From an uncultured virus (IMG/VR IMGVR_UViG_3300033406_000004) (taxonomy: Duplodnaviria; Heunggongvirae; Uroviricota; Caudoviricetes), in IMG/VR virus record IMGVR_UViG_3300033406_000004: 64,000 nucleotides of DNA; one strand, written 5' to 3'. Position numbers and translations under genes: made by a program. Each line of letters opens with the position of its first letter. Position 1 is the stretch's first letter. Positions 20,645 to 61,741 of this stretch are shown piece after piece. Under the pieces are notes generated by a model. The model did no database searches. It had not been told where the DNA came from and saw nothing but the letters and a program-made list of their open reading frames with translations.

Positions 20645-20647
20645 AAT

Positions 20648-41736: not shown

Positions 41737-43332
41737 TTAAGCAGTAGCAAGAAGTTCTCCGGTATATTCTACCCAAGCAGCACCGGTCCAGGTAACGATA
41801 TCACCTGCGGCAAAGCTACCTGCGGCGGCACTAAGAATTACCACATCATTCTTACCCGGATTAGCAGGCAGAGCGGCTGAAGTAGTCACGCTCACCGCGC
41901 CCGGAATATCCGAATGAGCATTGGCGCCATTAACCCAGATATGAGAGTAGCCTTTCAAACACAAAGCGTCGATAGTCATGATAACATCTCGTTTTGCTTC
42001 CTCTCCCTCTACGGCCTCGGTCTTTGATTCTTCGTTCTTCATCCAATAACGTACAAGACCTTCCTCGTCAAGCAAAGCTCCACAAGAAGAATATCCCAAA
42101 CGGTCAAGAGCGGGATCGTGGACTAATTCGATCTCTCCAAACACCGTTTTGATCTTGGTACATTTGATACCAAAAACAGTGCTCTCAGTCATGGAAATGT
42201 CCTTGTGCAGAGTAAGATCAATCTTCTGAATGTCGGCCATAAGGAATTTACCTAATATCCACAAAGCTTTTTTCGAGCAGTTCAAACCGGTGAACTTAAC
42301 CATTGACAAATTGATTAAGTCATTCAATGTGATCTGTGAAGCCAAATCATACTGGCGTTTGATCTGCCATCTGATACCCTTGGAGAAATAAACCATTTGT
42401 TCTCCAAGTTCTTTCTTTTGGCTGGCCACCTTGATCTTACCAAGTTGTCCCACCCATGCGGTACGGCAAGATTCAAGACGGAATTGGCGAATAATAGCTT
42501 CCGCCAAAGTCGCTTTTTGGAACGGGATACGCTTTTTCTGCGCTTCGAAATAGTCTGAAACAACACTGTTACAGAGCTGCTTTTGCAAGTAAAGTGTTTC
42601 CGGAAATGGCAGAATAGTATTTGGAGCAATAAACTTCTGCGTTTCATATCCCGCCGAGCTCAAAAGAATAACCTCTGTTCCTGCAGGAATATCCGGCATG
42701 TAGCAATATTCGTCAGAAGCATTCGCTTTAGGTCCATTGATCGCAATAGCGATAGGGGCATCCGTTGATTCGTTTCTGGAAACAAAATAAATCATCAGGT
42801 CAACATCGAGTTGATTCTGTCCGGTAGGATCATATCCTTTTACACCTTTCAGGATAGCGGTATAATATTCCTGGAAAGTTTTCACGTCATCCGAAGCCAA
42901 ACTAAGCTCTGCCCTTTTAGACTTGCCGGCACCGGCGGTATAGGCGGAAATAGTCTTTGCCGAAGAGCGTTTTTCGTCTATCATATAATGATCCACGACA
43001 AACGATTTAACCCTTACTTGCCGTTTAACCCGACGCTTGATGGTATCAATGACGCTTTCATCACTGGCAATCTGGGTAATTTGTTCATCTATCTCCGGTT
43101 GGATTAAATCCCCGCCTGCCTCTGCGAGATTAGATACGGTAGTGGATTCACCCGGTACCTGCGTTTTTAATCCCTGCTGTCCGGGAGTTGCGGTAGGAGT
43201 ACCCGGTTCAACCGTAGTAACTTCTGCCATCAGAGTGCCTACATCTCCGGTAAACAGGCAGATAACCATAAGAAGGACTGAAAGTGCAATCCATCTATTC
43301 TCATTTAAAACTCTCAATAGTCTTTTCATCAC
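41737..43332 (-). CDS. Major capsid protein (HK97 fold) with N-terminal hydrophobic leader
   Basis: Follows an acidic scaffold gene and precedes a strong terminator; spine-helix region LAEAIIRQFRLESCRTAWVG, GIRWQI, FG....I.TVFGEIELVHDP. Confidence 0.8.
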   Translation of the reverse strand: MMKRLLRVLNENRWIALSVLLMVICLFTGDVGTLMAEVTTVEPGTPTATPGQQGLKTQVPGESTTVSNLAEAGGDLIQPEIDEQITQIASDESVIDTIKRRVKRQVRVKSFVVDHYMIDEKRSSAKTISAYTAGAGKSKRAELSLASDDVKTFQEYYTAILKGVKGYDPTGQNQLDVDLMIYFVSRNESTDAPIAIAINGPKANASDEYCYMPDIPAGTEVILLSSAGYETQKFIAPNTILPFPETLYLQKQLCNSVVSDYFEAQKKRIPFQKATLAEAIIRQFRLESCRTAWVGQLGKIKVASQKKELGEQMVYFSKGIRWQIKRQYDLASQITLNDLINLSMVKFTGLNCSKKALWILGKFLMADIQKIDLTLHKDISMTESTVFGIKCTKIKTVFGEIELVHDPALDRLGYSSCGALLDEEGLVRYWMKNEESKTEAVEGEEAKRDVIMTIDALCLKGYSHIWVNGANAHSDIPGAVSVTTSAALPANPGKNDVVILSAAAGSFAAGDIVTWTGAAWVEYTGELLATA

Positions 43333-43360
43333 GATAAAAAAATTAAATTAATATTTGTAG

Positions 43361-44122
43361 TTACGCTTTTAATGCATCTTCAAGAAGGCTGTTGCCCTGT
43401 TTCTTTTTCTGCGAAGACGCGACTCCTTGGTCTTGAATGCCTTTGGGCAGGCCATCGCCTCTCTCCTCTTTAATCTTCTGGATATTGGTATTTCTGCCTT
43501 TGACTTCTCCGGCCGACATGGCATCAGCCACATCTTTGTCATAGTTGAACGCCCGGTCTATAAGCTCGCAGATTTCACGGGAATAGTTTCCTGAAAAGAT
43601 AGGACCGATTAACCTATCCCACATTTTGCCGAGAAACTCATCGACCGGATATCCCTTCTCCGAGCAAAAGGATTCCACCTCAGGCATGCTTTTTTCCACG
43701 TTATCATCGTATTCTTTCTTGGATGCATCTGTGGCCTCGATTTCAGCCTTTCTTTCTTCTTCGGCTTTAGTCAGTTCTTCGAACTCGGGAGTTCCTTCTT
43801 CGGCGGAAAGGAAGTCTTTTCCGAAATAACGGGCAAGTGCGCCGGAAGCGTTACGTTTGCCATTAACGATATCGGAGAGCATTTGAGCTAACTTAGGATC
43901 CTTGGCCAACGCGTCGGCCAGCTTCTTGGTTTGCTCGTTTGTTTTCCCGATATATCCCATGAGCATGTCAGCCGATCCTTCTTCATCTTCAGGATCATAC
44001 CCGTCAAAAGATTCTTTAAGCATCTTGGTGAGCTGCTCTTTTTTTGTAGGCTTTTTATCCTCAACAGGAGGAACAGTTTCTGTCTGTTGACCTTCAGGAA
44101 TAGTCTTTTCTTCAGTATTCAT
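43361..44122 (-). CDS. Putative capsid scaffolding protein
   Basis: Acidic, helical 253-aa ORF directly upstream of the capsid gene. Confidence 0.65.
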   Translation of the reverse strand: MNTEEKTIPEGQQTETVPPVEDKKPTKKEQLTKMLKESFDGYDPEDEEGSADMLMGYIGKTNEQTKKLADALAKDPKLAQMLSDIVNGKRNASGALARYFGKDFLSAEEGTPEFEELTKAEEERKAEIEATDASKKEYDDNVEKSMPEVESFCSEKGYPVDEFLGKMWDRLIGPIFSGNYSREICELIDRAFNYDKDVADAMSAGEVKGRNTNIQKIKEERGDGLPKGIQDQGVASSQKKKQGNSLLEDALKA

Positions 44123-44156
44123 TTTTCATTTTAATTAATGCGATTTATCGTATGTG

Positions 44157-44260
44157 CAAATGAAATAGAAAGAAGGCTTTTTCCGGTTGCTGTTTCAACA
44201 CAAAAAGTTGCTGTTTTGGCAAAACAACAACTTTCGAAGCAAGCAATACTTTTATATTTG
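44157..44260. promoter_or_regulatory. Divergent pair of putative late promoters
   Basis: Minus: CAGCAACC(44185-44192)-N20-TTCATTTG, second box CAGCAACT at 44206-44213; plus: CAACAACT(44225-44232)-N20-TATATTTG(44253-44260). Confidence 0.7.
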
Positions 44261-44282
44261 CGATAAAGATTTATGAGGCCGT

Positions 44283-44669
44283 ATGAGTGAAAAAATTAGC
44301 GAAATAAGGAATTCGGATGTTGTGAATGCGTACTTTGATTCAATGAAAAGCATCAAGAAAGAATCGCCTTATTCTTCTCAGGAAGATGTCATTTCGGACG
44401 CTCTTCAAAAAGGAGCTCCCAGATTCTACACAACCTATGAAAATGCCAGAAGATTTGTATCATTAATAGCAAGGGGGAAAAATCTTCCTCTGGTTAATGA
44501 AAATAAGGTGGAGATGTACCACGAACTGTTCAGGCGATTTTTATGTAAAAAGAACAATAATTGCGGGTATCTCATCTTAGAACAGATTATAGAAGAAGAA
44601 GCGCCCTCTTTTTACCTTGACTTCGAGACTTTCCGTGGAATAATATACAAAACATTAAATAAGAAATAA
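44283..44669 (+). CDS. Hypothetical protein with duplicated APRFY/APSFY motif (possible DNA-binding protein)
   Basis: GAPRFYTT.E.A and EAPSFYLD.ET internal repeat. Confidence 0.7.
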   Translation: MSEKISEIRNSDVVNAYFDSMKSIKKESPYSSQEDVISDALQKGAPRFYTTYENARRFVSLIARGKNLPLVNENKVEMYHELFRRFLCKKNNNCGYLILEQIIEEEAPSFYLDFETFRGIIYKTLNKK

Positions 44670-45157
44670 TGCCGTTCATACTCATACTGTTTTTCTTTTA
44701 CGCCATTGGTTCATTCATAGACATGAGGGCGTTTGGCATTAGTACAACTTCTCCATGGTGGTGTTTATTCACCTATAGCTTTATCCATTTATCATTCACG
44801 CATCTGCTTGTGAACGCGTTCGTATTCTTATCATACTGGCGTAAGATGAAAGGGATCATAAATATATATTTCTTTATTCCTCTTATCATCACGGTGCCCG
44901 TAATAGCCGCCATATTAAGTGCCCACAAAGATATTACAGTCGGAGCATCGGGCATTATTTACGCAATTATCGGCATATACATAGTAGCCTTTCCATTACC
45001 AAGGAATGTTCTAATCAAATTTATAACTTTAATTGTCCTAAGCTTTGCGTTGACCTGCTTTTTGCCATCGGTGAATACAGGTATCCACATATACAGCTTT
45101 CTTCTATCTTTAGTTGTAAGCCTTTTATGCAGGAGGTTTATTTATGCTAAATACTAA
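44669..45157 (+). CDS. Rhomboid-family intramembrane serine protease
   Basis: FTYSFIHLSFTHLLVN (H-x4-H-x3-N), VGASG catalytic Ser, His in VNTGIHIYSF; ~6 TM helices. Confidence 0.9.
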   Translation: MPFILILFFFYAIGSFIDMRAFGISTTSPWWCLFTYSFIHLSFTHLLVNAFVFLSYWRKMKGIINIYFFIPLIITVPVIAAILSAHKDITVGASGIIYAIIGIYIVAFPLPRNVLIKFITLIVLSFALTCFLPSVNTGIHIYSFLLSLVVSLLCRRFIYAKY

Positions 45158-47162
45158 TCAGATAATAGAGGAAAACCGCAAAAGACTTGCAGAAATCCGC
45201 AAACCATATAATCCCGTAACCGGGGAAGGATCAATATCGATACCCAGAGTTGAAGTAAGGATCAAAGATTGTCCGATAGAAATATTATATCTTCCTGAAA
45301 CCTTTGCAGAGACAGGTTTTGTCAAAAAGCTCATTGAAGTGGGATTCAACGGGTACATCAAAATAGTACTCAAGACGGGGATAACGGAAGATTTGCGGGA
45401 CAGCTTGTGGACTGAGTTCAACAAAGAAAGGATAAAACACGACTTTGAGTTCTGGGCTTTCATGCTTGCCGTGATAGCAGCCAAAGGAGAAGGGCGTGAC
45501 GTTCCTTTTACCCTTAACAGAGCGCAACGATATTATTTAAAAGAATTAGAAGAACTAAGATTGGCCCAAGTGCCGATAGACATCATATTGTGTAAGGCCC
45601 GACAATGGGGAGGCTCAACACTCACACAGCTTTATATGCTGTGGATACAGCTATGCCACAAGAGAAACTGGAACTCCGTCATTTGCGGAGACGTTCAGAC
45701 GCAAGCCTCTGTCGTGGCCGGCATGCTTTCAAAAGTTCTTAGAAACTACAAGGATTGGGCCACGGACGGAGTTAAGCTGAAATCAAGACCATTCGAAGGT
45801 TCCCAGAGCACAAGAATAATTGATTACTCTCAATGTATTTACTCTCTGGGGTCCGCTCAAAAGCCTGAATCCCTGCGAAGTCAGGACGTTTCCATGGCTC
45901 ACTTATCAGAGGTGGGTATATGGAAAGAAACCAAAGGTAAGAAACCCGAAGATCTCGTTCAGGCCATATTCGGATCTATATTATCCGCTCCCTACACCAT
46001 GAAAGTTTTGGAATCCACGGCAAAAGGTGTGGGTAACTACTTCCATCGCACATGGCTTGATGCGGTGCAGCACAAAAACAACTTCAAGGCCGTCTTTGTG
46101 CCGTGGTTCATGATCGATATCTACTCTAAAAAACTGGATACCAAGAAATATTGCGATTTCATTGCCACAATGAACGAGTATGAGCATTGGTTATTCCGGT
46201 TGGGAGCCACGCTAGAGGCCATAAACTGGTACAGGGGAAAACAAAAAGAGATAAAGGATACCTGGCGCATGTGCTCTGAATATCCTTCAACGGCAAATGA
46301 AGCTTTCCAAAGTACGGGTAAACGTATATTTCCGATGCAATACGTGGAAAACGCCCGGCGTACATGCATCGATCCATGTTTCTACGGGGAGTTTGTGGGG
46401 AAAGCGGATAAAGGCAAAGATGCCTTTGAAAATCTACGTTTTGAACACCTGTCATCACACGAAAAGAAAGAAGATAACTGTCTATGGGTATGGGTTATGC
46501 CCGATCTGTCAACTAACTATAGGGACAGATATGTCGTGTCAGTGGATGTCGGAGGTGTTTCAGACAGCTCAGATCCATCCGTAATAAAAGTGGCGGACAG
46601 GCTTCCGATGTTGGAGGTTGAAGGATTACCTGAAGTGGTGGCCGAATGGCATGGCCACATTGAACACGATTTGTTGATCTGGAAAGCGGCTCAGATAGCT
46701 CGAGCTTACGGGAACGCCCTACTCGTGATTGAAAGTAACACGCTGGAAACGGACGGCACGGAAGGAGATAATTCCGAATATATATTAGAAGAGATCAGAG
46801 GGTTCTATGATAATCTATATTCGCGAACATCTCCGGAGCAAATAAAAAAAGGAATGCCCACCAAATACGGATTCCACACAAATACGAAAACGAAGCCGGC
46901 GGTTATCGGATTCCTGAAATCTGCCATGCGGGATTGTTTATACATAGAGAGAAGTCGCCGGACCACGTTCGAGTTTGACCTTTACGAGCTCAAGGAAAAC
47001 GGTACGGAGATGGGAGCCGTGGAAGGCAATCATGATGACCTTGTCATGGCTACAGCGATAATGATATACGTATGTTATAAATGGGCTCTGCCGACTTTGA
47101 TAAAAGCCATGACGGAGAAAGAAAAAAGACGAACCAGAATAGTGAGTGAAGCATCTATGTAA
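45144..47162 (+). CDS. terL: Terminase large subunit
   Basis: KARQWGGST Walker A, AHLSEVG Walker B, ESTAKG, VDVGG, IESN, HDDLVMA. Confidence 0.92.
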   Translation: MLNTNQIIEENRKRLAEIRKPYNPVTGEGSISIPRVEVRIKDCPIEILYLPETFAETGFVKKLIEVGFNGYIKIVLKTGITEDLRDSLWTEFNKERIKHDFEFWAFMLAVIAAKGEGRDVPFTLNRAQRYYLKELEELRLAQVPIDIILCKARQWGGSTLTQLYMLWIQLCHKRNWNSVICGDVQTQASVVAGMLSKVLRNYKDWATDGVKLKSRPFEGSQSTRIIDYSQCIYSLGSAQKPESLRSQDVSMAHLSEVGIWKETKGKKPEDLVQAIFGSILSAPYTMKVLESTAKGVGNYFHRTWLDAVQHKNNFKAVFVPWFMIDIYSKKLDTKKYCDFIATMNEYEHWLFRLGATLEAINWYRGKQKEIKDTWRMCSEYPSTANEAFQSTGKRIFPMQYVENARRTCIDPCFYGEFVGKADKGKDAFENLRFEHLSSHEKKEDNCLWVWVMPDLSTNYRDRYVVSVDVGGVSDSSDPSVIKVADRLPMLEVEGLPEVVAEWHGHIEHDLLIWKAAQIARAYGNALLVIESNTLETDGTEGDNSEYILEEIRGFYDNLYSRTSPEQIKKGMPTKYGFHTNTKTKPAVIGFLKSAMRDCLYIERSRRTTFEFDLYELKENGTEMGAVEGNHDDLVMATAIMIYVCYKWALPTLIKAMTEKEKRRTRIVSEASM

Positions 47163-47189
47163 AAGAAAAGGGGATTAACCCCCTTTCTT
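47161..47189. terminator. Bidirectional terminator
   Basis: AAAAGGGG-attaac-CCCCTTT between convergent terL and portal genes. Confidence 0.7.
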
Positions 47190-49194
47190 ATGCCGCTTTT
47201 TTAACCACACCATCATTCTTTCCTGCCATAGAATCATCATTCATAAGCTGAGATAAATGCTGATTGCCTGACTGCTGTTCCACTTGTTGCATCAATGCCG
47301 GATCAATCCCCTGAAATGCCAATTGCTGCTGTTGGGCCTGAGCTTCCTGTGCGGCCTGCTCATCTCTTTTTATTGATTCTAGAATCTTGCCTGAAAAGGC
47401 ATAAGATGAATTCTCGAGCAATGTTTTTACCCCTATGGCATTAGACTCGAACAGCTTCATCAGGAATTCATTCTCCAACATCTGGAAAGACGGGGTATTG
47501 GGACCGTCTATGATCTGCAGGTCTATGATCGCATTTTGGACCTTATCCGGATCGTAATACTTAGATTCGTTAGAGTAATCCCTGCCGGCGATATCAAGAT
47601 ATCTGGCAGACTTATAATACTGCTGAATGGTTTGCACCAGTTTATAATCCCTCCTTCTCCTGAATGCCCGAAACGAATCAAGCAATCCCTTTAAGTTCAG
47701 GGATGAATTCTGTACTTGTTGCGCATACAGGCTGGCTGCCGTGCCCGAAGGAGCCTGCTTGCCCTGCATGGCACCGTTAACGCCTGCTATATCATTGATA
47801 AGCTTCAATTGGAGGTTAAGCAATTCATAATCACCGGCCGTATTAGCGGATGAATTACATTGCTGAACCACATCCTGAACACGCTTGCCGTCTTTGGGCT
47901 TAACAAATATGACTCCGTTATACCTGACATATTCATCCACTATTTCCTCCCGATTCATGCTTTCAAACGCACTCTCATCAACGATAATGACACCTTTTGA
48001 GGATGCTCCCCGAATAAAGTCGATTAAGGTCATTGTGCGATTGATAGCTCTTTGTTGATCTATAAAATCTTCCACGAAGTTGAAAACCCTTCCCTGAACC
48101 ATCGGATACGCATGAAAAACATAATTATGCTCTTCATGCCAATAGGGACTTCTGCCTTCCTGCAGCACGTCGCCCCATGGTGTCATGTAACGGTAATACC
48201 AATAAAGCTCATTGGAATATTTGTACTCTATAAGAAGCACGTCTTCGGGAAGAACACCATTAGCCTGAGCCTCGGCCAGTCTCCTATCGTTCTCAAGATC
48301 AAGAGCACGCTTATTCTTGAGATCTTCAAAAAACCATTTTCCATTCAAAAGATCATGGCAATAATATGCTTCTCTGGTTTCCTGCTTCCACCCGAAAATA
48401 ACCCGTCGGAGATCCGGACGTGACGGACTGTAGAAAGTCATGTTCTTATTTTCTTCTCCCTGCAGCCCGTCATAGGAAGCATATAAAGACGTGTATCTTT
48501 CATTGCCGTATATCTCTTCTATCCATGCCTTATCTTCCGGAGATTTGGCGAAAAGAGAAACAATGTTGTCGATATGCATGTCGTACACTTCGCCAATAAC
48601 ATTCAAATCCCAACCTCTGACATCCTCTATGTTCGTATTAAAAAACATTCTGGCCGGATTAACGCCGAACACCCAAGCATCGTTGGTTCGTTTGGACGGA
48701 TTGAAACCGTACTCTATTCTTTGCCCGATAAAGCCCCCTAAAAGCAATAGGCGCAAGCTGTCAGCATCAAGCTCGTTTAATTCGTTGAGATCATGCACAT
48801 ATTCAAGGGCCAGACTGACCATTTCTCCAAGCTTGGTCTCCTTCTGATCCCTGACGGAACAAATGGTCTGGGTAACGTTGTTCCTGAACTGTCCGTCTAT
48901 ATTTTTGATAATCGGACTAATCATGTTGTTTTTAAGAGGAATTTTACCATTCTTCTTAATAAGCTCACCTTCCGTGATGATAGCGTCCGTCTCCGGATCG
49001 CGTATATAATCACCCCATTGATCTTCATATGCATACATGAGGCTTCTGCGCATCTTTTTACGTGCTGTTTCCAGAGAAGCCCAACACGCCGCACACTCTT
49101 CGAGGAATTCATGGGCCTCCCCCCTCTCCCGGGGAACGGCCTGCTTTTCTTTGGTTTTTAAAGGCTTTACGCCTCTATTCAGAAATTTATTCAT
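47188..49194 (-). CDS. Portal protein (P22-like)
   Basis: DQW, PL.NN.I.P, D.IDQQR.INR, I.GVN..MQG..SG, Q-rich C-terminal barrel; start ATG 49194. Confidence 0.85.
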   Translation of the reverse strand: MNKFLNRGVKPLKTKEKQAVPRERGEAHEFLEECAACWASLETARKKMRRSLMYAYEDQWGDYIRDPETDAIITEGELIKKNGKIPLKNNMISPIIKNIDGQFRNNVTQTICSVRDQKETKLGEMVSLALEYVHDLNELNELDADSLRLLLLGGFIGQRIEYGFNPSKRTNDAWVFGVNPARMFFNTNIEDVRGWDLNVIGEVYDMHIDNIVSLFAKSPEDKAWIEEIYGNERYTSLYASYDGLQGEENKNMTFYSPSRPDLRRVIFGWKQETREAYYCHDLLNGKWFFEDLKNKRALDLENDRRLAEAQANGVLPEDVLLIEYKYSNELYWYYRYMTPWGDVLQEGRSPYWHEEHNYVFHAYPMVQGRVFNFVEDFIDQQRAINRTMTLIDFIRGASSKGVIIVDESAFESMNREEIVDEYVRYNGVIFVKPKDGKRVQDVVQQCNSSANTAGDYELLNLQLKLINDIAGVNGAMQGKQAPSGTAASLYAQQVQNSSLNLKGLLDSFRAFRRRRDYKLVQTIQQYYKSARYLDIAGRDYSNESKYYDPDKVQNAIIDLQIIDGPNTPSFQMLENEFLMKLFESNAIGVKTLLENSSYAFSGKILESIKRDEQAAQEAQAQQQQLAFQGIDPALMQQVEQQSGNQHLSQLMNDDSMAGKNDGVVKKAA

Positions 49195-49209
49195 AGTTGC
49201 TCTTTTAAA

Positions 49210-49249
49210 CAAAAGTATCAGTTAATGTTTCTACGTGCTTTGTTGAATT
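49210..49249 (-). promoter_or_regulatory. Putative late promoter of the portal gene
   Basis: Minus strand AATTCAACAAAG-N20-TACTTTTG. Confidence 0.5.
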
Positions 49250-49250
49250 G

Positions 49251-52200
49251 CTATTTTTTATCCATTTGGTCAAGCTCGTCCAACATTTTAAATTTCATGT
49301 CGGCTATTTCGTTTTTGATCTTATCCGAAGAGCCTTCATCGGCCAATTGTAAAAGAGAAGCGATATCATCGATTTGATTTTTGTAGGCCTTGACAATCAT
49401 CATACGACGCTCTTCTTCATCGCTTTTCTTTTCGATATAGCTATCGCCCAAATCGAACCCCTGCCTAAGTCCCCGTTTGTATTCCCGGTCCCGGCTCTGG
49501 CTTTCTTCGAGCAACTTCACATATTTCTGATACCTTTCATTTACGACGGAATTTGGCATGGCCGGATCGAATTGATAGCCAAACCTGTTAACCACAGGAA
49601 TATCTTTCAGCGCCACATCTTCACCAACCAATGGGCCGACAGTAGATTTTACCGTCTGCAGGATTGTTTTTCCTACGCCTCCCATATAAGAAAAGAACAA
49701 GTGTTCCACAGCCCCCGGATTGAGTAACGGAGAATCGGCCCATCCCTTTGTCGCAAAATCCCCACCTGTCATAGAATTGAGTGCCTGAGAAGACTTAACC
49801 AGCATTTGAGAAGTTCCTTTATAAACCTTCCTGTACTCAGGTATGTACGTATTATACTCGTTTTTCTTCACGATAGGTCTACCGGTAAATGATCTGTTAG
49901 TGATATAAGCGTCCACAAATGGTTTTATCGCATCGGGAGTCAGATTCACAAAAGCGGCTCCAACCAAACCATTTTCACCTTTATCAGAACCCTCGATAAA
50001 ATTTCGGGGACTGGCATCGAGTAGCTTGCCCAGAACATCGGCACCCACATTCCTGTCATTGTATTTTCCTCCGACGAATTGAGACAAGATATCTCCAACC
50101 CCGAAGAATGCGCGAAGTTCAATAGGAAGTGGAATTGTCACAAAGTTGTCTTCTCCGAAAAACGGGATAACAATATTGTTCTGCCTTATGTAATCAGGCA
50201 ACTTATCGTAATCATCATCTCCACCCGAGAGTATGTTATACATCAATGGCATCATGGCCCCCAACATCATCCAAGAACCCATGGCGATAGATGTACGAAC
50301 AGGATAGTTCTTGAATGTATGAGAGAAGTTATACATGCCCTGTATGCCGGCATTCAAAAAGAAGTAGGACATATCAGCCAGCCAGTTGCCTCCGGCTCCG
50401 GATCCTTTTCTATTGAAGTTAACGGATAGCTCTTTTGCGTCCTTAACACTTCGAACGATGCTCCTTCCCTCTTCCCTGGAGGCTATGTATGCGGAGAATC
50501 TGGACATATCTTCCGCCCAGCGGTTACATCCGCTCAAACCTTTAGCGATGACATGGAATGCATCAGACATTTTCCCGGTCCCGTTGGCCTTATCGATCTC
50601 TCTCTTAATCTCTTTTTTATATTGCTCATAAGATGTCAATGCGACAAATCCTGTTTCTCCACCGTTAGAAAGAAATTCATCAAAGTATTTATCGTACTTG
50701 CCATCTCCCTCTTTTCCTGTAAGATATCGGGTTATAGTAGACGAAGCTTCAGGTATAGCCTTTATAAAAGCAAAATTATAAGAAGCATCCTCTCGAATGC
50801 CATTCATGGTCATGGCGTAAATCATATCCCTGCTTAGGTTGGAAAGAACGAAAGCCGGGTTACGGGTGGTGAAGTTTTGCGTCATGAATCGTTTAATATC
50901 ACCCTGTGTCTTGACAAGCTTGTTATCAAAAGGCTTCACGTTATTAAGTCCATTCACAGCCTGAGCCACGCGGGGATCACCATTTATGTAGATCACTAAA
51001 TCCTTCCCGTTCTCTTTGACTTTTATCGCATGCTGATCAGCTTGCCACTTTTTAATTGGAACATCAAGAGATAGACCTTTGGTGACTTTCTTCGCCAGAC
51101 CACTTTTCTCCAGTTCCTCCATTTGCTGATTAAATCTTTCCAGCGTATCCAAATCCTCTTCTCTGTTACCCGTAAGTTCCGGGACAACTTCCTGCCATAC
51201 GTCTCCGTTATTCCTGTACCACACCGGAGCAATCGTAGCCATATTGGTAGGATAGTTCCTGACCAGAGAAAGAAGATGCTGTTTCATCTCGTTTTTATTT
51301 CCGATAAATACGGCACTCTCGGCCATTGAGGCTATACTTGCCAACGGATCACCCGATTCACTCTTACGGCCATTTGCTTTCATAAGCGGGTTATTGACCA
51401 CATCGTTTTCATCCTTGAAAAAATAGTCATAGAAGTCACCGGCGGTCTCTTCGCTCCATGCTCTCAGGGGAATATAGTATTTATACATTTCAGATATCTG
51501 CTTCTTGGTAGCTTTATCTATGCATCCTGAACTCAATTGTTTGTTAAGGCTAAACGTGTTTGCCCTACGGACTGAATTCCACAAAGATTCCACATCTTTA
51601 CTGTCGTGATCCTCTTCAAATTCTTCAATGAATAGGACGATCTCGTCTTCAAGAAGAGGATCGGTTTCCTCCTGTTTGAATAATCTATGTTGAAGGCCGG
51701 TCAATCCGGCATAATCAACGCTTTGTTGTTTAATGGCGTAGTTGGACAGGTTTTTTATGGCTGCTTTCTTTGCTGTTTCGACAGTCTGATCAATTTTCTT
51801 CTGAAATTTATCAATATCAGCTTGGGTGGTACCTTTCTTCGATCTCAAAGACATCAGATCTTGTTGCAGTCCGTTCGCTATGCCAAGAACATGCTCATCC
51901 ATCTGCTTTTGTTTGCGCTCGATAGCGGCATTACGCATGTGCAGGTTTCTCTCTATACCATGTTTTGCCTTCATGTAAGACTTGACCAATTCCGCATCAC
52001 CCAGCTTTACGACGGCATTCACCAGAGGTTTAAGATAATCGTTCTTAAATTGTTCGATCTCATAAGTAGAGCGGGAAGCAATGGTGTTCTCGTTCGTGTA
52101 AGCATCGCAAAACTCTTCTATCTTTCTGCCCGTATGTCCGGATACCAATTCCTGAAACCGGCGAAGAGGTAACATCCTGTCTTGCCATCCTTCCCTAAAC

Positions 52201-55200
52201 CTGTCATTCCTCAGTTTTGCGGAAAAATCCTTTTTCTCTTCATCCGTGAGCTCCACGGCTTCTTCGGCAATCTTTATCTGGTCCCCTATATTCTCCTTTG
52301 ATAATGTGTTTGAATCAATTACGGGAGGTTTCTTCTCTTCATCGGGTATTTCCCTGAATAGTTTATCCCGTATATCCAGATCGCGCATCTTTTTGTCTAT
52401 GCGCTCTTCGATGGTACCGTTTTCCAAATTATTCCTGCTTCTCCAAAGAAGATACTTAATGTCATTGTCTGACATTTCAAGTTCTATGCCCGCCTTACGG
52501 AAGAGTTCTTTTATTGCGCTGATTACTTTGTTCCAGATGGAAGGATCAGTTCCCGATTCGGCTTGTTCAGCCAGATATTCTTCGGTAGCGGTTGCGATAT
52601 CATAATTGTATTTACTGATCGCCTGTTCAGAGACATGCTTTTTGATATCATCCGGAAGAGATTTAAATATATCATCTATGGTATCATCGAACTTATCACC
52701 AAATAATCCCCTTAATCCCTTATGGCCTGCTATCTCATGCAACATCGTACGCTGCGCATCAGCAACGCTCGTAGCATTGGGGAGTACGATAACGATCTCA
52801 CCTGTTTTGGGATCAAACCAGCCTTTAGAAGTCTTTTTGCGAAGTTGCAGGGACGCATTGTCATCTGTTATCTCATTCATATCCTTTATGAGCCGAACAG
52901 GGGTATTCAATTTATCAGATAGCTCCGATACGGATTTGGAAATGGCCTCCTGCTCTTTACTTTCCGGTTTGGAAGTGAGGTCCCTTAAAAGATCATTCAG
53001 CGAATCCGCACTCCTATGGTAAAGAGCCTTGTAGTCTTGATTGCTGACGCCTCCATTTTTATCAAGTTTCTTGTAATATTCCGTTTGATCGTTAAGCCTG
53101 TCTATGAACCCTTGGATATATTCCTTTGCGGCATCGGTTGCGTCTTCTTTCAGAGCGTTAAGTGTGTTTATGAGGGTAGAAGCCTCTAGCTCGAAATCTG
53201 TAACAAAGGAATTTGGAGTATATTCACTCTTACCGCTTTCTTGAGAATATTTAAAATCCGGCTTTCTTCCATTTATATTTCTACCAAATGAGGCCGATAA
53301 ACGGTAAACCCGATTAGCCACATTATCCATGGTTGTTTCAGAGCCACGATAACGAATGTCCGTATTATCATTGAGGTTTGAGTCTTTGCCATTAGGAGCT
53401 TTCATAAACGAGCCGTCGGCTACAGCTTTATCCTTTATTTCTTCAAGTTCATCGGTTTCACGGAATAAAGGAGCATTAGAATTACTTTCTTGATCGGTTG
53501 TAATAGCTGCGGCCTCAATCTTTCTATAATCCGCAAATGGCTTTTCTTTTTTAGTGTCAGTAGACAACCATTTGTCAAACACATCTTTTGAAACACCGGT
53601 AATATTTCCTAGGCCGGTCCACCCTTTTTCATAGTTCGCGAGGTAGGCATCACGGGCCTCTTGCTCGGAATTGAAACCATACATTACCTTATGTTCATCA
53701 AAGGAACCATCAGGATTAACCTGATCCACAACATAAACTGTTTCAGGATTAAGATTCTCGCCTAAGAACACGTCTATATGATCACCGTCTTTCCCTTTTG
53801 TACCACGAAAATAGCCATAGCTATTATTCATTTTAATACTCCAAGGGGTACCTGAATTGTCAATGCCTTTGCGCTCGCTTCCCTTAGGATTTTCAATAGT
53901 CACGTCGTATCCTCCGATTTTCACGTGTCCCATCTTATAGTTCCCTGCTTCTTTCTGGGCTTCGGAAGGATTGGCATCTACCTTCTGTTCTTCGTCGGAT
54001 AGTTCTTTAGCTTTTACTATACGAGAAGCATAATCGAGTATCGACTCATCTGTCTTTATTTCAGGAGCGACAAAATTCGGTTTTTCCGATTTATCTTCAT
54101 TACTTTCCTGAGGAAGAGGAGAAACTATTTCATCTTCTCGATTTTCGCTTTCTGCTTCTCTATCAGACTCTTCAGAGCCATCTGTTCTATTTCGTTCTTG
54201 CTCTCCTTCAAGTCTTTCTCCATCTTTCGAAGCGTCATTATCTCCGCTATCTTCACCTTGTCCATCTTCTTCTTTATTTAATTGTGAATAAATCTCATTA
54301 ATTTCATCTATGCTCATGCCTTCATAAAGCATCTCAGCATACTCGGCAGCTTCAAATTCGTCTCTCATGGATGACAAGGCCTGCATTTGCTCATCATCCA
54401 AGAAATCTATGTAAGATTGAGTCTGTCGCTCGTAGGCAGGTATCATGTCGCTTTCTACAGCATCAGAGAAAGCTTTCTTCTGAGCTTCAGTCTCAATCAT
54501 ATGATTGGCTTTCTTATACTCAAGATACAACTTACCTGTATTGGATTCAGGACCACCTACAGAGAAACCCATTTCGGCAGAAGCAATCTCGCTAAACCTA
54601 CCCGATAATTTCTTCTGTAAGTCAGAAGTTGTACGCACATAATTAGTCGGATTACTAAGCATGAAGTCAACAATTTCATTCTCTGTCACTTCATTGCCGA
54701 AGCCGCTTAATTCCTGTGCTAAGGTATCAAGTTCTTCACCGTCTTTTCTCAACCACGCCTTAGCAAAGGTACCATTTATTTTATTTCGGTCTCCAAAACG
54801 ATTGAATGAATTAGTATTCATTTTTCTTCCTAATAGCTCACGTTGCCATGGAAGAAGGATGTTTTCGTGACTGGATTGTTCCTTAGCCACGCCATAAGCT
54901 CCGGCCAGCTCAATCGGATCATCCGAATTGTCGGCAGCCCAATCGGCGTATTCCTCATCGGTGGCTATATCATGAGGAGCCTCATTCTCTTTTTGTGGAG
55001 ACAACAAACTTTTGATGCTTTCCAATCTGGACAGCTCTTGGTTGATACGTTTCTTTGTACGTGCCTTCTCTATGGCATTACCCTTTTTCTCCGCATGGGA
55101 AAGTTGCTTTTGTTGGTTGGCAATGTCTTCTTCCACAATAGAGAGAGCATCTTCTCCGAATTCCTTCTTAAGTGCTTTAGCGTACACGGCAGGATCGCTT

Positions 55201-57934: not shown

Positions 57935-59047
57935 CTAAGGAAGTAAAGAGGGTTTGTTGTTATTCGGCAAAAGGCTTGCAGATTTTGCGGCTTTTGGAGT
58001 TGGAGCGCCTCCTCCGACCAGTTGATTGAACTCTCCTGTGAGTTGGGGAAAGTCGGCTATGCGACGCTTTACAATAGAGATGATCTTGGTCGCCTGATCT
58101 CCGCCTTCACCCATTTTCATATTGATATCATCCAGTGTTCCGTATTTCTGGGGATTCTTCTCCGACTCTTCTTTCATCCTATTGTAGAGAGACAAAAGGG
58201 CACCATTCTTACTCTTGGGATAATCTACGGTTGTGCGTTTACCGTCGGATCCGGTAAGCGTAATAGAATCCATGCCGGTGGAGGAATTACCTTTGCTCGC
58301 ATTCGTGGCCGCATTCTGTTGAGCGGCCTGAGCGGACATGCGTTGAGATTGAGCGTTGTAACCCGCCGTGCTCTCCGATTTCTTATTATGCCTTGCCGTC
58401 TCCATAAGAACCTTGTCGGCATGTTCCTGACTGATTTTATGATTGCGGACCTGTTCCTGCAGAGCGTCATACTTATACTTCATCTCTTCACCAAACTGTC
58501 CGTTCTGTATATCAAGCTTATACTTGTCAAGCGATTGCTTTTGCTTTAGTTGGTCTTCGGCACGCTTTAGCTCAAAGTCTTTGTATTGAGAGCTGAGAAC
58601 TTTGTTCTGATAATCAATATTCTCATTTCGTTTCATATCTTGCAAGCTCTGAATCCGCTCATTGGCTTTTGCCGTTTGACTTTGCATGGGAGAAAAAGCC
58701 CGTGCGCCCCTGCTAAGGGCCATTCCTTGTGCGAAGATGTTAGCCATGTCACCTATGAGGGCGGCACTACGATTTCTTCTGAGACGTTTTTCTTCATCGT
58801 CAAAATTTGGCCTGTTCCAGTTCTTAAGGACATTATAATATCCCTCGCTGCTAACTCTGTCTGAAACAGAAGGAACATTCTTTTCTTGAGGTACTTCGTC
58901 TTGGGGTGGGACTTGCTCAACAGGCTGCTGAGTTGTCTGAACTTCATCAACAGGCTGTGTAACCGGAACTGCCGGATCTGCAGAATCTGCTATAGCAGGT
59001 TGCTTGGCGGTTTTCTCTGTAGGATATAAGTATTCAGTCAGTCTCAT
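57935..59047 (-). CDS. Putative ejection (internal virion) protein
   Basis: Helical, Q/K/A-rich, ETARHN motif; upstream of the giant protein. Confidence 0.6.
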   Translation of the reverse strand: MRLTEYLYPTEKTAKQPAIADSADPAVPVTQPVDEVQTTQQPVEQVPPQDEVPQEKNVPSVSDRVSSEGYYNVLKNWNRPNFDDEEKRLRRNRSAALIGDMANIFAQGMALSRGARAFSPMQSQTAKANERIQSLQDMKRNENIDYQNKVLSSQYKDFELKRAEDQLKQKQSLDKYKLDIQNGQFGEEMKYKYDALQEQVRNHKISQEHADKVLMETARHNKKSESTAGYNAQSQRMSAQAAQQNAATNASKGNSSTGMDSITLTGSDGKRTTVDYPKSKNGALLSLYNRMKEESEKNPQKYGTLDDINMKMGEGGDQATKIISIVKRRIADFPQLTGEFNQLVGGGAPTPKAAKSASLLPNNNKPSLLP

Positions 59048-59604
59048 GCTAAGTTGTTTTTCTTAATTGTGTCGTTAACTGTAGGAGCACTGGAGGCTCC
59101 ACTCTTACCCCAATTTACTCCCTGAAGGGCCTGACCGATTAATCCCATACTATTAGAGCCAACCTGTGAAGCACCGTTTTCACCGGCTGCCGATTGAGCT
59201 ATTTTCTGACTCATTACATTTTGCTGATTCTGATTATTCACGGCATCAACCTGCTCTTTTTTCTCGTCCCCTCTGGCGGCCAGTCCGGCAACGGTGTCAC
59301 TCATCAGTTTCTGATCGTTCGCCTGCTGGGCCAGAACGCCTTCTTGTGTGCCTCCTGTTACGGCTGCCGTAGCCTGAGCTTCCTGATTACGTCTGCGCAT
59401 TGTATCCTCGACTCTCTTTATGGCAGCCTTTGAACCGGTAGAATCTAAATAATCCTGATAGTAATTACGCTCATACCAGGCATTGTTTTTCGCCTCTTGC
59501 TGCTTTAGCAAATTCTTTTGCTCTTTAGCAGCATCTGCCGATTTAAACATCCCGTAAATTCCGTTGGCCAGACCGACACCGGCTCCAATTGCACTTAATA
59601 ACAT
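59044..59604 (-). CDS. Putative ejection/pilot protein (P22 gp7-like)
   Basis: Gly/Ala-rich hydrophobic N-terminus AIGAGVGLANGIYG followed by a Q/A-rich coil. Confidence 0.65.
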   Translation of the reverse strand: MLLSAIGAGVGLANGIYGMFKSADAAKEQKNLLKQQEAKNNAWYERNYYQDYLDSTGSKAAIKRVEDTMRRRNQEAQATAAVTGGTQEGVLAQQANDQKLMSDTVAGLAARGDEKKEQVDAVNNQNQQNVMSQKIAQSAAGENGASQVGSNSMGLIGQALQGVNWGKSGASSAPTVNDTIKKNNLA

Positions 59605-60316: not shown

Positions 60317-61525
60317 TTAGTAATTCACTACCGCCAGATCAAAATCTCCCGGAGAATTGGTATAATCAATAACTCGGCAAATTGCCGCATCGGCCTGTCT
60401 TTGCATGATACGCACATAATTGTAAATTGGGCGGTTCTCTTTCATCGACTGGCCTATACAATATTCAATGATCTCCGTCTTTATTCCAAGGTCGAAAGCA
60501 AACTGAGAGAAAGTCTTTCTTCCGGAGTAAAAAGAGAACTCTGTTTCAATGCCTACCACTTTGGCCAGATTCTTCAAACACCTGTTTAAATAGCGTTGGA
60601 AGTTTGAATACGAGAAATTATACCCGAAATCCAACTTCCCGTTTCTCTTTAGGTATTTCTTGATAATTGGTTTGGCTTCATCCGGAATAGAAAAGGTTAT
60701 CGACTTATCTCCCTGCTTATTCAAGTTCGTTTTTTGCCGGACATACTTTATCGTGTCACCGCTGAAATCCACCTGAACGATATCGGCCAGATTCATTCCG
60801 CCAAGATAGAAAGAGAGCAGAAACAAATCTTTTGCGAGGGACAAACGTTTGTGTTTGGTCTCGAGCGTGCGGATTCGGTTAAACTCCTCTATTGTTATAT
60901 CCAACTGCTTGATGTTGGACCTTGGCATTTTGGTATATGCGAAAGGATGGACCTCGTATTTAACCATACCGTCACGTATGGCCTCGTTGATACTGGCTTT
61001 CAGATGAGTCAGGCGCATTTGCTTGGTTGCGTTGCTCAAGTTACTCATACCCCTGACAAACTTATCAATGGTTCCGGGAGAGAAACTTTGAAGGGTTATG
61101 TCACCAATGATATTAAGTATCTTGGTGAGGGTGTAGACATTCATATCCGCATAACTCCCCCTGCCCTCTTTCCGCAATCTCTCAATGCGTTGTTCCATCC
61201 ATTCTTTGATGGTGGTCAACTGCTCTATCCGATGTTTGCCTTCGAGTATTTCTTTTATCTGTGCGCTATTGTATACATACTGATCAGGAATGCCCTCAAG
61301 CTTCTCCTGATATTCCGAAAGAACATACTTTAGACGCAGATTCATCGTGTTTGCGTCTTTGCGACAGATAACCTTGCCATTTTCAAATTGGTATAGACCA
61401 TCAATCACATAATCCGTTTTAATGTAACGGATGTCATTGCGGGTTTGCATAACCGCAATATAAATAGGATACTTTTTTTCTAAAGTTCGTCTTGATCTTA
61501 AGACTGATAAATAAATTGTTGCCAT
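60317..61525 (-). CDS. int: Tyrosine recombinase (phage integrase)
   Basis: Arm-binding N-terminus, SAM-like middle, LFLLSFYLGGMN..D, Y.RQKT, FYSGRKTF, IEYCIGQ, YNY; adjacent to att. Confidence 0.92.
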   Translation of the reverse strand: MATIYLSVLRSRRTLEKKYPIYIAVMQTRNDIRYIKTDYVIDGLYQFENGKVICRKDANTMNLRLKYVLSEYQEKLEGIPDQYVYNSAQIKEILEGKHRIEQLTTIKEWMEQRIERLRKEGRGSYADMNVYTLTKILNIIGDITLQSFSPGTIDKFVRGMSNLSNATKQMRLTHLKASINEAIRDGMVKYEVHPFAYTKMPRSNIKQLDITIEEFNRIRTLETKHKRLSLAKDLFLLSFYLGGMNLADIVQVDFSGDTIKYVRQKTNLNKQGDKSITFSIPDEAKPIIKKYLKRNGKLDFGYNFSYSNFQRYLNRCLKNLAKVVGIETEFSFYSGRKTFSQFAFDLGIKTEIIEYCIGQSMKENRPIYNYVRIMQRQADAAICRVIDYTNSPGDFDLAVVNY

Positions 61526-61667
61526 AATTTAAAATGTTCAGCGACAAGCACAGCGACAAGCAGATTTGCTCATGTACGGGTAAGTTTGCCGTTTTTTTTA
61601 AATATCACAACATTTTCCGAGAAAGGAAAAGAGCCGTAAATCGTTGATTTACAGCTCGTTACAAAAG

Positions 61668-61741
<74 letters not shown>

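What the first reader, a model, noticed from the sequence alone, without database searches (positions are those of the whole stretch)
41737..45157. Membrane-leader capsid protein plus phage-encoded rhomboid protease: a possible intramembrane capsid maturation route
Seen: the major capsid ORF starts with a basic segment and a hydrophobic helix (RWIALSVLLMVICLFTG), then DVGTLMA and a Pro/Thr/Gly linker before the capsid fold. A minimal rhomboid with intact GASG and His motifs overlaps the terL start and is driven from the same divergent promoter region. No conventional prohead protease was recognised. Established: rhomboids cleave in or next to TM helices; HK97-fold capsid proteins normally have no TM. 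Inference: capsid precursors are tethered to the inner membrane and released by the phage rhomboid. Alternatively translation starts at the internal Met (MAEVTT) or the rhomboid has another substrate.
Basis: partly seen in the sequence, partly recalled or inferred. Interest (0 to 1): 0.88.

Follow-up and report, generated by a model that had tools for sequence, protein, structure and literature searches.

The report
Capsid protein with membrane leader, phage rhomboid
A gut Bacteroides prophage makes its shell protein with a membrane-targeting leader and also encodes an intact membrane protease, but whether the protease cuts the leader remains unproven.

Summary
The window holds a tRNA-Arg-integrated Bacteroidales prophage. 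Its HK97-fold major capsid protein (MCP, 41737-43332, minus strand) starts with a basic tail, a 16-residue hydrophobic helix and a conserved ...LMA|E junction.

A 162-aa, 6-TM rhomboid (44669-45157) sits between a terS-like ORF and terL. Its His/His/Asn, Gly-x-Ser and His residues are invariant in 30 homologues of 19-67% identity.

The leader is translated (pN/pS 0.26). It persists in lineages whose MCPs are only 23-27% identical. One derived clade lacks it, and there the MCP starts 'MAE' exactly at the junction.

The link between rhomboid and leader is weaker than raw counts suggest. Among 234 distinct MCPs:
- 86 have leader and rhomboid.
- 62 have neither.
- 61 keep the leader without a phage rhomboid, including one complete 59-kb genome.
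- 2 have a rhomboid but no leader.

On the tree the leader changes once and the rhomboid three times, and only one change is shared.

Rhomboid-bearing lineages have an Ala|Glu/Asp/Asn junction. Rhomboid-less ones have an AxA-like Ala|Ala/Thr-Val junction.

The leader's charges predict an N-in topology, opposite to classical rhomboid substrates.

Verdict: a membrane-targeted, cleavable capsid precursor is well supported and unusual. I put cleavage by the phage rhomboid at about 0.4.

The parts
41737..43332 (-). Major capsid protein precursor, 531 aa from GTG 43332. The likely start is ATG 43329, giving 530 aa. The HK97-fold core is residues about 88-472, followed by a small C-terminal beta domain at about 480-525.
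43225..43332 (-). Leader, residues 1-36. It has a basic tail (MKRLLRVLNENR), a hydrophobic helix W14-G29 (43246-43293), a c-region DVGTLMA, and a junction at Ala36|Glu37.
   Evidence: Ala36 nearly invariant; pN/pS 0.26; helix 2-27
43072..43224 (-). Disordered Thr/Pro/Gly-rich acidic linker, residues 37 to about 87. It aligns with the N-terminus of leaderless relatives.
   Evidence: (pLDDT below 50 for residues 29-82)
43361..44122 (-). Scaffold-like acidic, helical 253-aa protein directly upstream of the MCP. It is syntenic in all relatives.
   Evidence: (phrog_22323)
44123..44282 (.). Divergent intergenic region. TATATTTG lies at 44253-44260 on the + strand, 23 nt before ORF128. This matches the Bacteroides -7 promoter motif as I recall it. 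No such motif lies on the minus strand here.
   Evidence: the motif is not enriched in the window overall: 82 found against 65.7 expected
44283..44669 (+). ORF128, a small soluble protein in the terS position. It is always directly upstream of the rhomboid, or of terL where the rhomboid is absent.
   Evidence: (phrog_27246)
44669..45157 (+). Minimal 6-TM rhomboid of 162 aa. Key codons are H40 (44786-44788), H45 (44801-44803), N49 (44813-44815), G92-A-S94-G (Ser94 at 44948-44950) and His140 (45086-45088).
45144..47162 (+). Large terminase. It overlaps the rhomboid stop by 14 nt.
   Evidence: phrog_2, E 6.8e-20
47188..49212 (-). P22-like portal protein.
   Evidence: (PF16510, E 1.6e-35)

Best explanation
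The MCP of this temperate Bacteroidales phage is made as a precursor. Its first 36 residues form a signal-anchor-like leader: a basic tail, a hydrophobic helix, then a flexible Gly-containing spacer ending in Leu-Met-Ala.

The leader takes the nascent capsid protein to the cytoplasmic membrane. This step is inferred from established rules of membrane targeting.

The leader is then cut off at Ala36|Glu37. The mature protein therefore begins where leaderless relatives begin. This step is inferred from comparison with those relatives.

In lineages that carry it, this window included, the phage's own GlpG-like rhomboid is the most likely enzyme acting on the leader. It is co-transcribed with ORF128 and terminase, and its overlaps with both genes suggest coupled translation. 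It could either make the releasing cut or clear the leader from the membrane. This step is inferred, not shown.

In the sister lineage that lost the rhomboid, the junction has become AxA-like, so a host peptidase must do the job.
For: Leader is translated and selected.
- Over 175 same-length pairs from 56 distinct leader DNAs, pS is 0.390 and pN is 0.102, a ratio of 0.26.
- The architecture is kept in four lineages, down to 23-27% MCP identity.
- As parsed, 32 of 34 representative leaders have a net-positive tail. One is -1 and one was mis-parsed. In 33 of 34 the next 15 residues are net negative.

Leader is dispensable for the shell, and the junction marks the mature end.
- One monophyletic clade (SH-aLRT 100) lacks the leader.
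- 50 of its 70 distinct MCPs start 'MAE', aligned with the window's LMA|E.

Rhomboid is an active-type enzyme under selection.
- H40, H45, N49, G92, S94 and H140 are invariant in 30 sequences of 19-67% identity.
- 140 of 141 rhomboid-positive loci carry the whole motif.
- The fold matches GlpG.

Synteny. The rhomboid lies between the small ORF and terL, divergent from scaffold-MCP, in the window lineage and in the cultured phages BF1-TP2 and BS-TP4.

Junction differs with rhomboid state.
- Ala is followed by Glu/Asp/Asn in 77 of 86 rhomboid-positive distinct MCPs, against 5 of 61 rhomboid-negative ones.
- 'MA[EDN]' occurs in 49 of 86 against 2 of 61.

No other maturation protease.

Not a typical signal peptidase I substrate. 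No junction listed has Gln at +1, whereas most Bacteroidetes signal peptidase I substrates do (abstract of PMC5837995 as listed).

Substrate features. P1 Ala fits the small-P1 requirement. A motif outside the TM with a flexible spacer can be presented to the active site, and the authors argue the same for the type II protein Star (passages of PMC2941825).
Against: - 61 distinct leader-bearing MCPs lie in phages with no rhomboid in the slot or within 9 kb. One complete 59-kb genome has none at all.
- 2 distinct leaderless MCPs (L254, L255) sit beside an intact rhomboid.
- On the tree the leader changes once and the rhomboid three times. Of 3 independent contrasts in rhomboid state, the leader goes the same way in 1 and does not differ in 2, so no test is possible.
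- The junction difference also rests on only a few clades.
- The leader's charges predict N-in/C-out. Rhomboid substrates were defined as N-out/C-in. Positive-inside counting by eye on the sequence puts this rhomboid's active site on the periplasmic side. A strict N-in anchor would also put the capsid domain outside the cytoplasm, and I cannot resolve that paradox.
- A Met two residues before the junction is common in rhomboid-positive forms, so an internal start remains possible here.
- There are no protein-level data.
Confidence: 0.4

Rival explanations
1. The leader is handled by host enzymes in every lineage, such as signal peptidase I, a host rhomboid or another peptidase. The phage rhomboid has a different substrate, for example a host or phage membrane protein involved in lysis timing, superinfection exclusion or membrane quality control. 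On this view its place in the packaging operon reflects late expression only.
For: - A large clade keeps the leader without any phage rhomboid.
- L254 and L255 keep an intact rhomboid without a leader.
- The leader has a classical n-h-c signal-peptide layout with Ala at -1.
- Its orientation suits signal peptidase, not classical rhomboid substrates.
- Host Bacteroides encode rhomboids: B. thetaiotaomicron is positive in the control.
- Rhomboid genes annotated in unrelated Stenotrophomonas phages DLP3 and DLP5 lie among other non-structural genes (passages of PMC7326821).
Against: - No alternative substrate was identified. The other TM proteins of the window's late region are lipoprotein-like or tail-anchored.
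- A Gly-rich N-terminal-anchor protein (59044-59604) is conserved in rhomboid-less phages too.
- Junction chemistry tracks rhomboid presence.
- Met, Phe or Cys at -3 and the absence of Gln at +1 are atypical for Bacteroidetes signal peptidase I substrates.
- The gene has stayed in the same head-module slot across very deep divergence.
Confidence: 0.35
2. The gene has two in-frame starts. Most MCP is made from Met35 (MAEVTT...) and never sees the membrane. The long leader-bearing form is a minor membrane-bound isoform with a separate role, such as nucleating or siting assembly.
For: - A Met sits two residues before the junction in most rhomboid-positive forms: 'MA[EDN]' occurs in 49 of 86.
- Leaderless relatives start with the same Met-Ala-Glu.
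- Dual in-frame starts are common in phage late genes (general knowledge, recalled).
Against: - Many leader forms have no Met near the junction. Examples are ...SDAALLLAAVNVV and ...GVLTANAS, and the L376 form ...GFGVIGADGA.
- The sequence before Met35 is not A/T-rich, whereas the sequence before the first start is. That Bacteroidetes starts favour A/T-rich leaders is recalled.
- A minor isoform would still need explaining.
Confidence: 0.15
3. The leader is not removed. It stays on the MCP and ends up inside or on the particle, for example as a hydrophobic internal element.
For: No cleavage has been shown. The N-termini of HK97-fold proteins often face the capsid interior (general knowledge, recalled).
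Against: - A whole clade builds capsids without the leader.
- The sharply conserved small-residue junction with a flexible spacer looks like a processing site.
- Hundreds of hydrophobic helices per shell would be without precedent.
Confidence: 0.05

Closest known systems
E. coli / H. influenzae GlpG and Providencia stuartii AarA (bacterial rhomboid proteases, Pfam PF01694)
   Same: - Six-TM core.
- Gly-x-Ser in TM4, His in TM6 and His-x4-His-x3-Asn in TM2.
- The predicted fold superposes on GlpG.
- AarA removes a short N-terminal piece of its substrate TatA to activate it (passages of PMC2941825). That is the nearest functional analogy.
   Different: - Only 162 aa, with a very short L1 loop and no cytoplasmic domain.
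- Scores far below the NCBIfam GlpG and rhombosortase cut-offs.
- Phage-encoded in a head/packaging operon.
- The candidate substrate is predicted N-in, whereas TatA and the model substrates are N-out.
Prohead-protease maturation of HK97-fold capsids (HK97 gp4/gp5 delta domain, T4 gp21/gp23); recalled from general knowledge
   Same: An N-terminal part of the capsid protein precursor is removed during head maturation. A separate scaffold gene lies next to the MCP.
   Different: - Those proteases are soluble and packaged inside the prohead.
- Their propeptides are hydrophilic.
- No such protease gene is present here.
- The removed part here is a membrane-type helix.
Membrane-associated prohead initiation in phage T4 (portal gp20 with membrane protein gp40); recalled from general knowledge
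   Same: Head assembly starts at the inner face of the cytoplasmic membrane, and the head is released later.
   Different: In T4 the tether works through the portal and a chaperone. The capsid protein itself is not tethered, and no intramembrane protease is involved.
Sec signal peptides cleaved by signal peptidase I in Bacteroidetes (Q-rule; abstracts of PMC5837995 and PMC10653852 as listed)
   Same: A basic n-region, a hydrophobic h-region, a c-region with a helix breaker, and Ala at -1. The rhomboid-less lineage often has a perfect Ala-x-Ala.
   Different: - No Gln at +1 in any junction listed.
- The cargo is a capsid protein that must work in the cytoplasm.
- Met, Phe or Cys at -3 in the rhomboid-bearing lineages.
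Rhomboid genes annotated in cultured phages: BF1-TP2 gp59 and BS-TP4 gp8 (GenBank PQ571263, PQ571277), and DLP3 gp93 / DLP5
   Same: BF1-TP2 and BS-TP4 have the same gene in the same slot, and their MCPs carry the same kind of leader.
   Different: - The paper describing BF1-TP2 and BS-TP4 does not mention the rhomboid: the word occurs 0 times in the main text of PMC12694917.
- Their terL is annotated 'tail spike protein'.
- The DLP3 and DLP5 rhomboids lie among other non-structural genes, and no function is given.

Membership tests
Rhomboid family (Pfam PF01694, intramembrane serine protease) | Sequence match above the curated cut-off | tested here: met
   48.7 bits against a cut-off of 22.6, E 1.2e-12, covering residues 30-154
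Rhomboid family (Pfam PF01694, intramembrane serine protease) | Six-TM core with the GlpG fold | tested here: met
   The AlphaFold2 model has pLDDT 93.7 and shows six long helices plus short ones. The first 14 Foldseek matches are all GlpG, with probability 1.00 and TM-scores of 0.63-0.72 by query length.
Rhomboid family (Pfam PF01694, intramembrane serine protease) | Catalytic Ser in Gly-x-Ser-x (TM4) and His (TM6), plus TM2 His-x4-His-x3-Asn | tested here: met
   G92, S94, H140, H40, H45 and N49 are invariant in 30 sequences of 19-67% identity. The whole motif is present in 140 of 141 rhomboid-positive loci.
Rhomboid family (Pfam PF01694, intramembrane serine protease) | Trp-Arg motif in a long L1 loop (feature recalled from GlpG literature) | tested here: not met
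   L1 is only about 14 residues (DMRAFGISTTSPWW) and has no Trp-Arg pair. The distant lineage has an Arg just before TM2. This motif is not universal in the family.
Rhomboid family (Pfam PF01694, intramembrane serine protease) | Proteolytic activity on a transmembrane substrate | not testable with these tools
   This needs an enzyme assay.
Rhombosortase (NCBIfam TIGR03902) and GlpG equivalog (TIGR04239) | Score above the equivalog cut-off | tested here: not met
   33.1 bits against 84 for rhombosortase, and 18.3 bits against 250 for GlpG
HK97-fold major capsid protein | Fold and profile similarity to solved capsid proteins | tested here: met
   The profile hits PDB 9in6_M at E 9.7e-8. Foldseek gives VP1 capsid at E 3.9e-18, phicrAss001 at 5.2e-13, and also P1 and SU10.
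SU10_MCP (Pfam PF17236) | Score above the gathering cut-off | tested here: not met
   21.8 bits against 24.1. It is a relative, not a member by Pfam's rule.
Sec / signal peptidase I signal peptide (Bacteroidetes type) | n-h-c layout with a small residue at -1 | tested here: met
   The tail is basic, the hydrophobic core is 13-30 residues, and Ala precedes the junction. No signal-peptide predictor was available.
Sec / signal peptidase I signal peptide (Bacteroidetes type) | Gln at +1 (Q-rule, holds for most substrates) | tested here: not met
   None of the junction strings listed has Gln after the junction Ala. The rule is taken from the abstract of PMC5837995.
Classical rhomboid substrate | Single TM with N-out/C-in orientation and the motif at the N-terminal end of the TM | tested here: not met
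   The charges predict N-in, and the junction lies C-terminal to the helix. The definition comes from passages of PMC2941825.
Classical rhomboid substrate | Small P1, hydrophobic P4 and P2' | tested here: inconclusive
   P1 Ala is nearly invariant. In the window, P4 is Thr and P2' is Val. In the BS-TP4 type, P4 is Val and P2' is Ala.
Prohead-protease-dependent capsid maturation | A prohead protease gene in the head module | tested here: not met
   No protease family among 64 window ORFs in Pfam or PHROGs. None is annotated in BF1-TP2.

The most novel reading that the evidence does not exclude
A widespread family of temperate gut Bacteroidales phages sends its HK97-fold capsid protein to the inner membrane with a signal-anchor leader. 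It then frees the protein by juxtamembrane cleavage with the phage's own minimal rhomboid, which would be acting on a substrate of reversed (type II) orientation. If true, this would be the first viral rhomboid with a known substrate and the first intramembrane protease in capsid maturation. It would also be a case in which a host peptidase can later take over the job, as in the rhomboid-less sister lineage.
Probability: 0.3. Interest if true: 0.9.

Novelty: new variant of a known kind. Interest (0 to 1): 0.74.

Why it matters
Capsid proteins of tailed phages are regarded as soluble cytoplasmic proteins matured by soluble prohead proteases. Here hundreds of gut Bacteroidales prophages and several cultured phages carry a capsid protein whose leader should, by every textbook rule, send it to the membrane.

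That raises a concrete question about topology and assembly site. It also offers a natural substrate candidate for a bacterial-type rhomboid, a family whose prokaryotic functions are mostly unknown.

Cultured members exist (BF1-TP2, BS-TP4), so virion N-terminal analysis and a Ser-to-Ala mutant can test this directly. Even if the rhomboid has another target, the leader remains unexplained and worth study.

Tried and rejected
- Complex prediction of the rhomboid (alignment A6) with MCP residues 1-81 (alignment A7) scored 0.01 against a mark of 0.32, with controls not run. The tool's verdict was 'no answer', so it counts neither way.
- tblastn of the window rhomboid against the phage collection found nothing at E 1e-3. 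Even so, BF1-TP2 and BS-TP4 do carry distant rhomboids, so that blank was a sensitivity limit.
- I looked for another leader-type protein in L254, which has a rhomboid but a leaderless MCP. The output held only noisy antisense ORFs and no candidate.
- I tested the Gly-rich N-terminal-anchor protein (59044-59604) as an alternative substrate that might co-vary with the rhomboid. It is present in rhomboid-less genomes too, so it is uninformative.
- I considered a lipoprotein (signal peptidase II) leader. I rejected it by inspection: there is no lipobox, and Ile precedes the only Cys.
- I considered a Tat signal. I rejected it because there is no twin arginine.
- An automatic junction parser overshot and was discarded (second half). 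It was replaced by simple pattern counts and the full list of strings.
- The sigma-70 promoter scan was not used, because Bacteroides promoters differ. A search for the recalled TAnnTTTG motif showed no enrichment overall.
- Literature searches found no paper linking a phage rhomboid to a capsid protein, none naming BF1-TP2 by that string, and no report of a TM-leader capsid in the 15 listed of 68 papers.
- The BV01/Salyersviridae paper has 0 mentions of 'rhomboid' or 'capsid'.
- Supplements of these papers were not read.


Full report
WHAT IS THERE

The window holds a prophage of roughly 60 kb. A tyrosine integrase (60317-61525) lies next to tRNA-Arg (61667-61741), followed by host genes.

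The head and packaging module has this order:
- portal, 47188-49212, minus strand
- terL, 45144-47162, plus strand
- a 162-aa rhomboid, 44669-45157, plus strand
- a 128-aa soluble ORF in the terS position, 44283-44669, plus strand
- a 160-bp divergent intergenic region
- a 253-aa scaffold-like protein, 43361-44122, minus strand
- the 531-aa capsid protein (MCP), 41737-43332, minus strand

The rhomboid overlaps ORF128 by one base and terL by 14 bases. It therefore belongs to the late packaging operon.

A Bacteroides-type TAnnTTTG motif, recalled from memory, lies 23 nt before ORF128. No such motif lies on the other strand of this spacer.

THE CAPSID PROTEIN

- A profile of 73 relatives matches the solved capsid protein of Vibrio phage VP1 at E 9.7e-8.
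- The AlphaFold2 model has mean pLDDT 79.8. It shows an N-terminal helix (2-27), a disordered stretch (29-82), a core (88-472) and a small C-terminal beta domain.
- The best structural matches are the capsids of VP1, phicrAss001, P1 and SU10.
- Pfam's SU10_MCP model scores just under its cut-off.
- The likely start is ATG 43329, one codon after the GTG. The database copy is 530 aa, relatives start MKK, and the start follows an A/T-rich 28-nt spacer.

THE LEADER

Residues 1-36 have three parts: a basic tail, a hydrophobic helix W14-G29 (best 17-residue Kyte-Doolittle mean 2.38), and DVGTLMA before Glu37.

The same layout is present in all 23 close relatives first fetched. It is also present in the cultured phages BF1-TP2 and BS-TP4, whose MCPs are only 23-27% identical.

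The leader codons are under purifying selection. Over 175 same-length pairs from 56 distinct DNAs, pS is 0.390 and pN is 0.102, a ratio of 0.26. The leader is therefore translated.

As parsed, 32 of 34 representative leaders have a net-positive tail. One is -1 and one was mis-parsed. In 33 of 34 the next 15 residues are net negative. By the positive-inside rule this is an N-in, signal-peptide-like segment.

THE RHOMBOID

- It passes Pfam's cut-off at 48.7 bits against 22.6.
- Its model has pLDDT 93.7 and superposes on GlpG.
- Across 30 homologues of 19-67% identity, six positions are invariant: H40, H45, N49, G92, S94 and H140.
- The full motif is present in 140 of 141 rhomboid-positive loci.
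- It falls far below the NCBIfam cut-offs for rhombosortase and GlpG, so it is a distinct minimal subfamily.
- By eye on the sequence, the positive charges sit in the TM2-3 loop, the TM4-5 loop and the C-tail. That gives a GlpG-like topology with the active site on the periplasmic side.

NO PROHEAD PROTEASE

None was found among 64 window ORFs in Pfam or PHROGs. None is annotated in the complete BF1-TP2 genome.

CO-OCCURRENCE

I fetched MCP relatives with 9-kb flanks in four scans:
- three IMG/VR scans, each ranked to a different first sequence
- one scan of species-representative genomes

Each scan returns only the best 80 of 307-482 relatives.

Each locus was scored in two ways:
- Leader: a hydrophobic 17-residue window of at least 1.7 before the conserved core.
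- Rhomboid: my own profile at E 1e-3. Absence was accepted only if the terL start and at least 700 nt beyond it were in the locus.

A lenient search (E up to 10, filters off) and a motif search found no hidden rhomboid in the negative loci.

The 314 loci collapse to 234 distinct MCP proteins:
- 86 with leader and rhomboid
- 62 with neither
- 61 with leader but no rhomboid
- 2 with rhomboid but no leader
- 23 with unknown rhomboid state

The leaderless proteins form one clade (SH-aLRT 100). Of its 70 distinct MCPs, 50 start 'MAE', aligned with the window's LMA|E. In these phages the small ORF abuts terL, so the rhomboid slot is empty.

WHY THE RAW COUNTS OVERSTATE THE LINK

The 61 leader-only proteins are a diversified clade, mostly prophages in ruminant Bacteroidaceae MAGs with about 62% MCP identity. 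This clade is sister to the window's own subclade. Its slot holds two soluble ORFs or nothing.

One member is a complete 59-kb genome with terminal repeats. It has no rhomboid by Pfam or by the clade profile.

L254 and L255 have a leaderless MCP beside an intact rhomboid that still follows the small ORF.

I built a tree of 86 representatives. Cores under 380 aa and near-duplicates of the same state were dropped, and only 12 of the 64 known-state genome loci were added. On this tree the leader changes once and the rhomboid three times. Of three independent contrasts in rhomboid state, the leader goes the same way in one and does not differ in two. The phylogenetic support is therefore one shared event.

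A SECOND, SOFTER LINK

The junction differs with rhomboid state.

- Rhomboid-positive forms read ...G-x-x-(x)-G-[V/I]-[M/L/F/C]-M-A followed by Glu/Asp/Asn. Ala followed by E/D/N occurs in 77 of 86.
- Rhomboid-negative forms have acidic residues right after the helix, then ...[L/M][L/M]A-[A/T/G]-V or L-A-M-A-T-V-V. Ala followed by E/D/N occurs in 5 of 61. Many of these are perfect Ala-x-Ala sites.

This fits a switch of peptidase after the rhomboid was lost. It again rests on a few clades.

Many rhomboid-negative forms, and a few rhomboid-positive ones, have no Met near the junction. An internal start therefore cannot be the general route to mature MCP.

None of the junctions has Gln at +1. 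Most Bacteroidetes signal peptidase I substrates do (abstract of PMC5837995).

TOPOLOGY PROBLEM

Rhomboid specificity was defined on N-out/C-in substrates with the motif at the N-terminal end of the helix. [quoted passage not shown]

Here the junction lies 8-10 residues beyond the hydrophobic core, after a Gly/Ser-rich spacer. That might allow such looping.

The deeper paradox is that an N-in anchor would place the capsid domain outside the cytoplasm. This applies equally to the signal peptidase reading, and I cannot resolve it with sequence tools.

CONCLUSION

My confidence in each step:
- A translated, membrane-type, probably cleaved leader on an HK97-fold capsid protein is well supported. 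I put translation at about 0.9 and removal at about 0.7. I found nothing like it in print.
- The phage rhomboid acting on that leader is the best single hypothesis for rhomboid-bearing phages, at about 0.4. It is not required for the leader in general.
- A different substrate is nearly as likely, at about 0.35.

The rhomboid genes of BF1-TP2 and BS-TP4 are annotated in GenBank. They are not mentioned in the main text of the paper describing those phages (0 occurrences).

Noticed in passing
window 49251-57932 (-): A 2893-aa polyvalent protein with InPase, LPD38 and LPD14 domains and a DarB-like PHROG match. It lies just upstream of the portal and is probably an ejected or internal virion protein.
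   Followed up: no
window 23329-24618 (+): A RuBisCO large-chain-like protein (PF00016, E 2.3e-21) inside the prophage's low-GC accessory island (about 21-33 kb, GC 0.27-0.37). Its neighbours include a GmrSD-like nuclease, an AbiEi-like protein, a DUF4325/STAS-like protein and DUF2971. This is odd cargo for a phage.
   Followed up: no
window 19034-19651 (+): A protein with a Tad2-like (Thoeris anti-defence 2) domain, E 8e-11.
   Followed up: no
window 60317-61741: A tyrosine integrase next to tRNA-Arg(TCT) at 61667-61741 marks the right prophage end. A repressor-like gene at 1133-1477 lies near the left end. The att repeats were not sought.
   Followed up: partly
L254 7149-8029 (also L255): A phage with a leaderless MCP keeps an intact rhomboid directly after the small terS-like ORF, although terL has moved elsewhere. 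Its rhomboid looks more like the BS-TP4 type than the window type, which suggests module exchange.
   Followed up: partly
L301 6221-7226, L312 6479-7461, L339 5895-6885: In the rhomboid-less sister clade, the slot between the small ORF and terL holds two soluble ORFs of about 160 aa. By their N-terminal sequences they resemble the three paralogues at window 19707-21070; the latter match phrog_19255, but the slot ORFs were not scanned.
   Followed up: no
L024 5107-7134; L025 5057-7153: In GenBank records PQ571263 and PQ571277 the gene next to the rhomboid is named 'tail spike protein'. Its annotation notes cite terminase models, and it occupies the terL position.
   Followed up: partly
window 59044-59604 (-): A 186-aa protein with an uncharged, Gly-rich hydrophobic N-terminus followed by a Lys-rich stretch, which looks like an N-out anchor. 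It is conserved in phages both with and without the rhomboid.
   Followed up: partly
window 41737-41900 (MCP residues about 480-525): The MCP has a small C-terminal beta domain that is absent from L006/L068 and from the BF1-TP2 and BS-TP4 MCPs. It may be a surface decoration domain.
   Followed up: no
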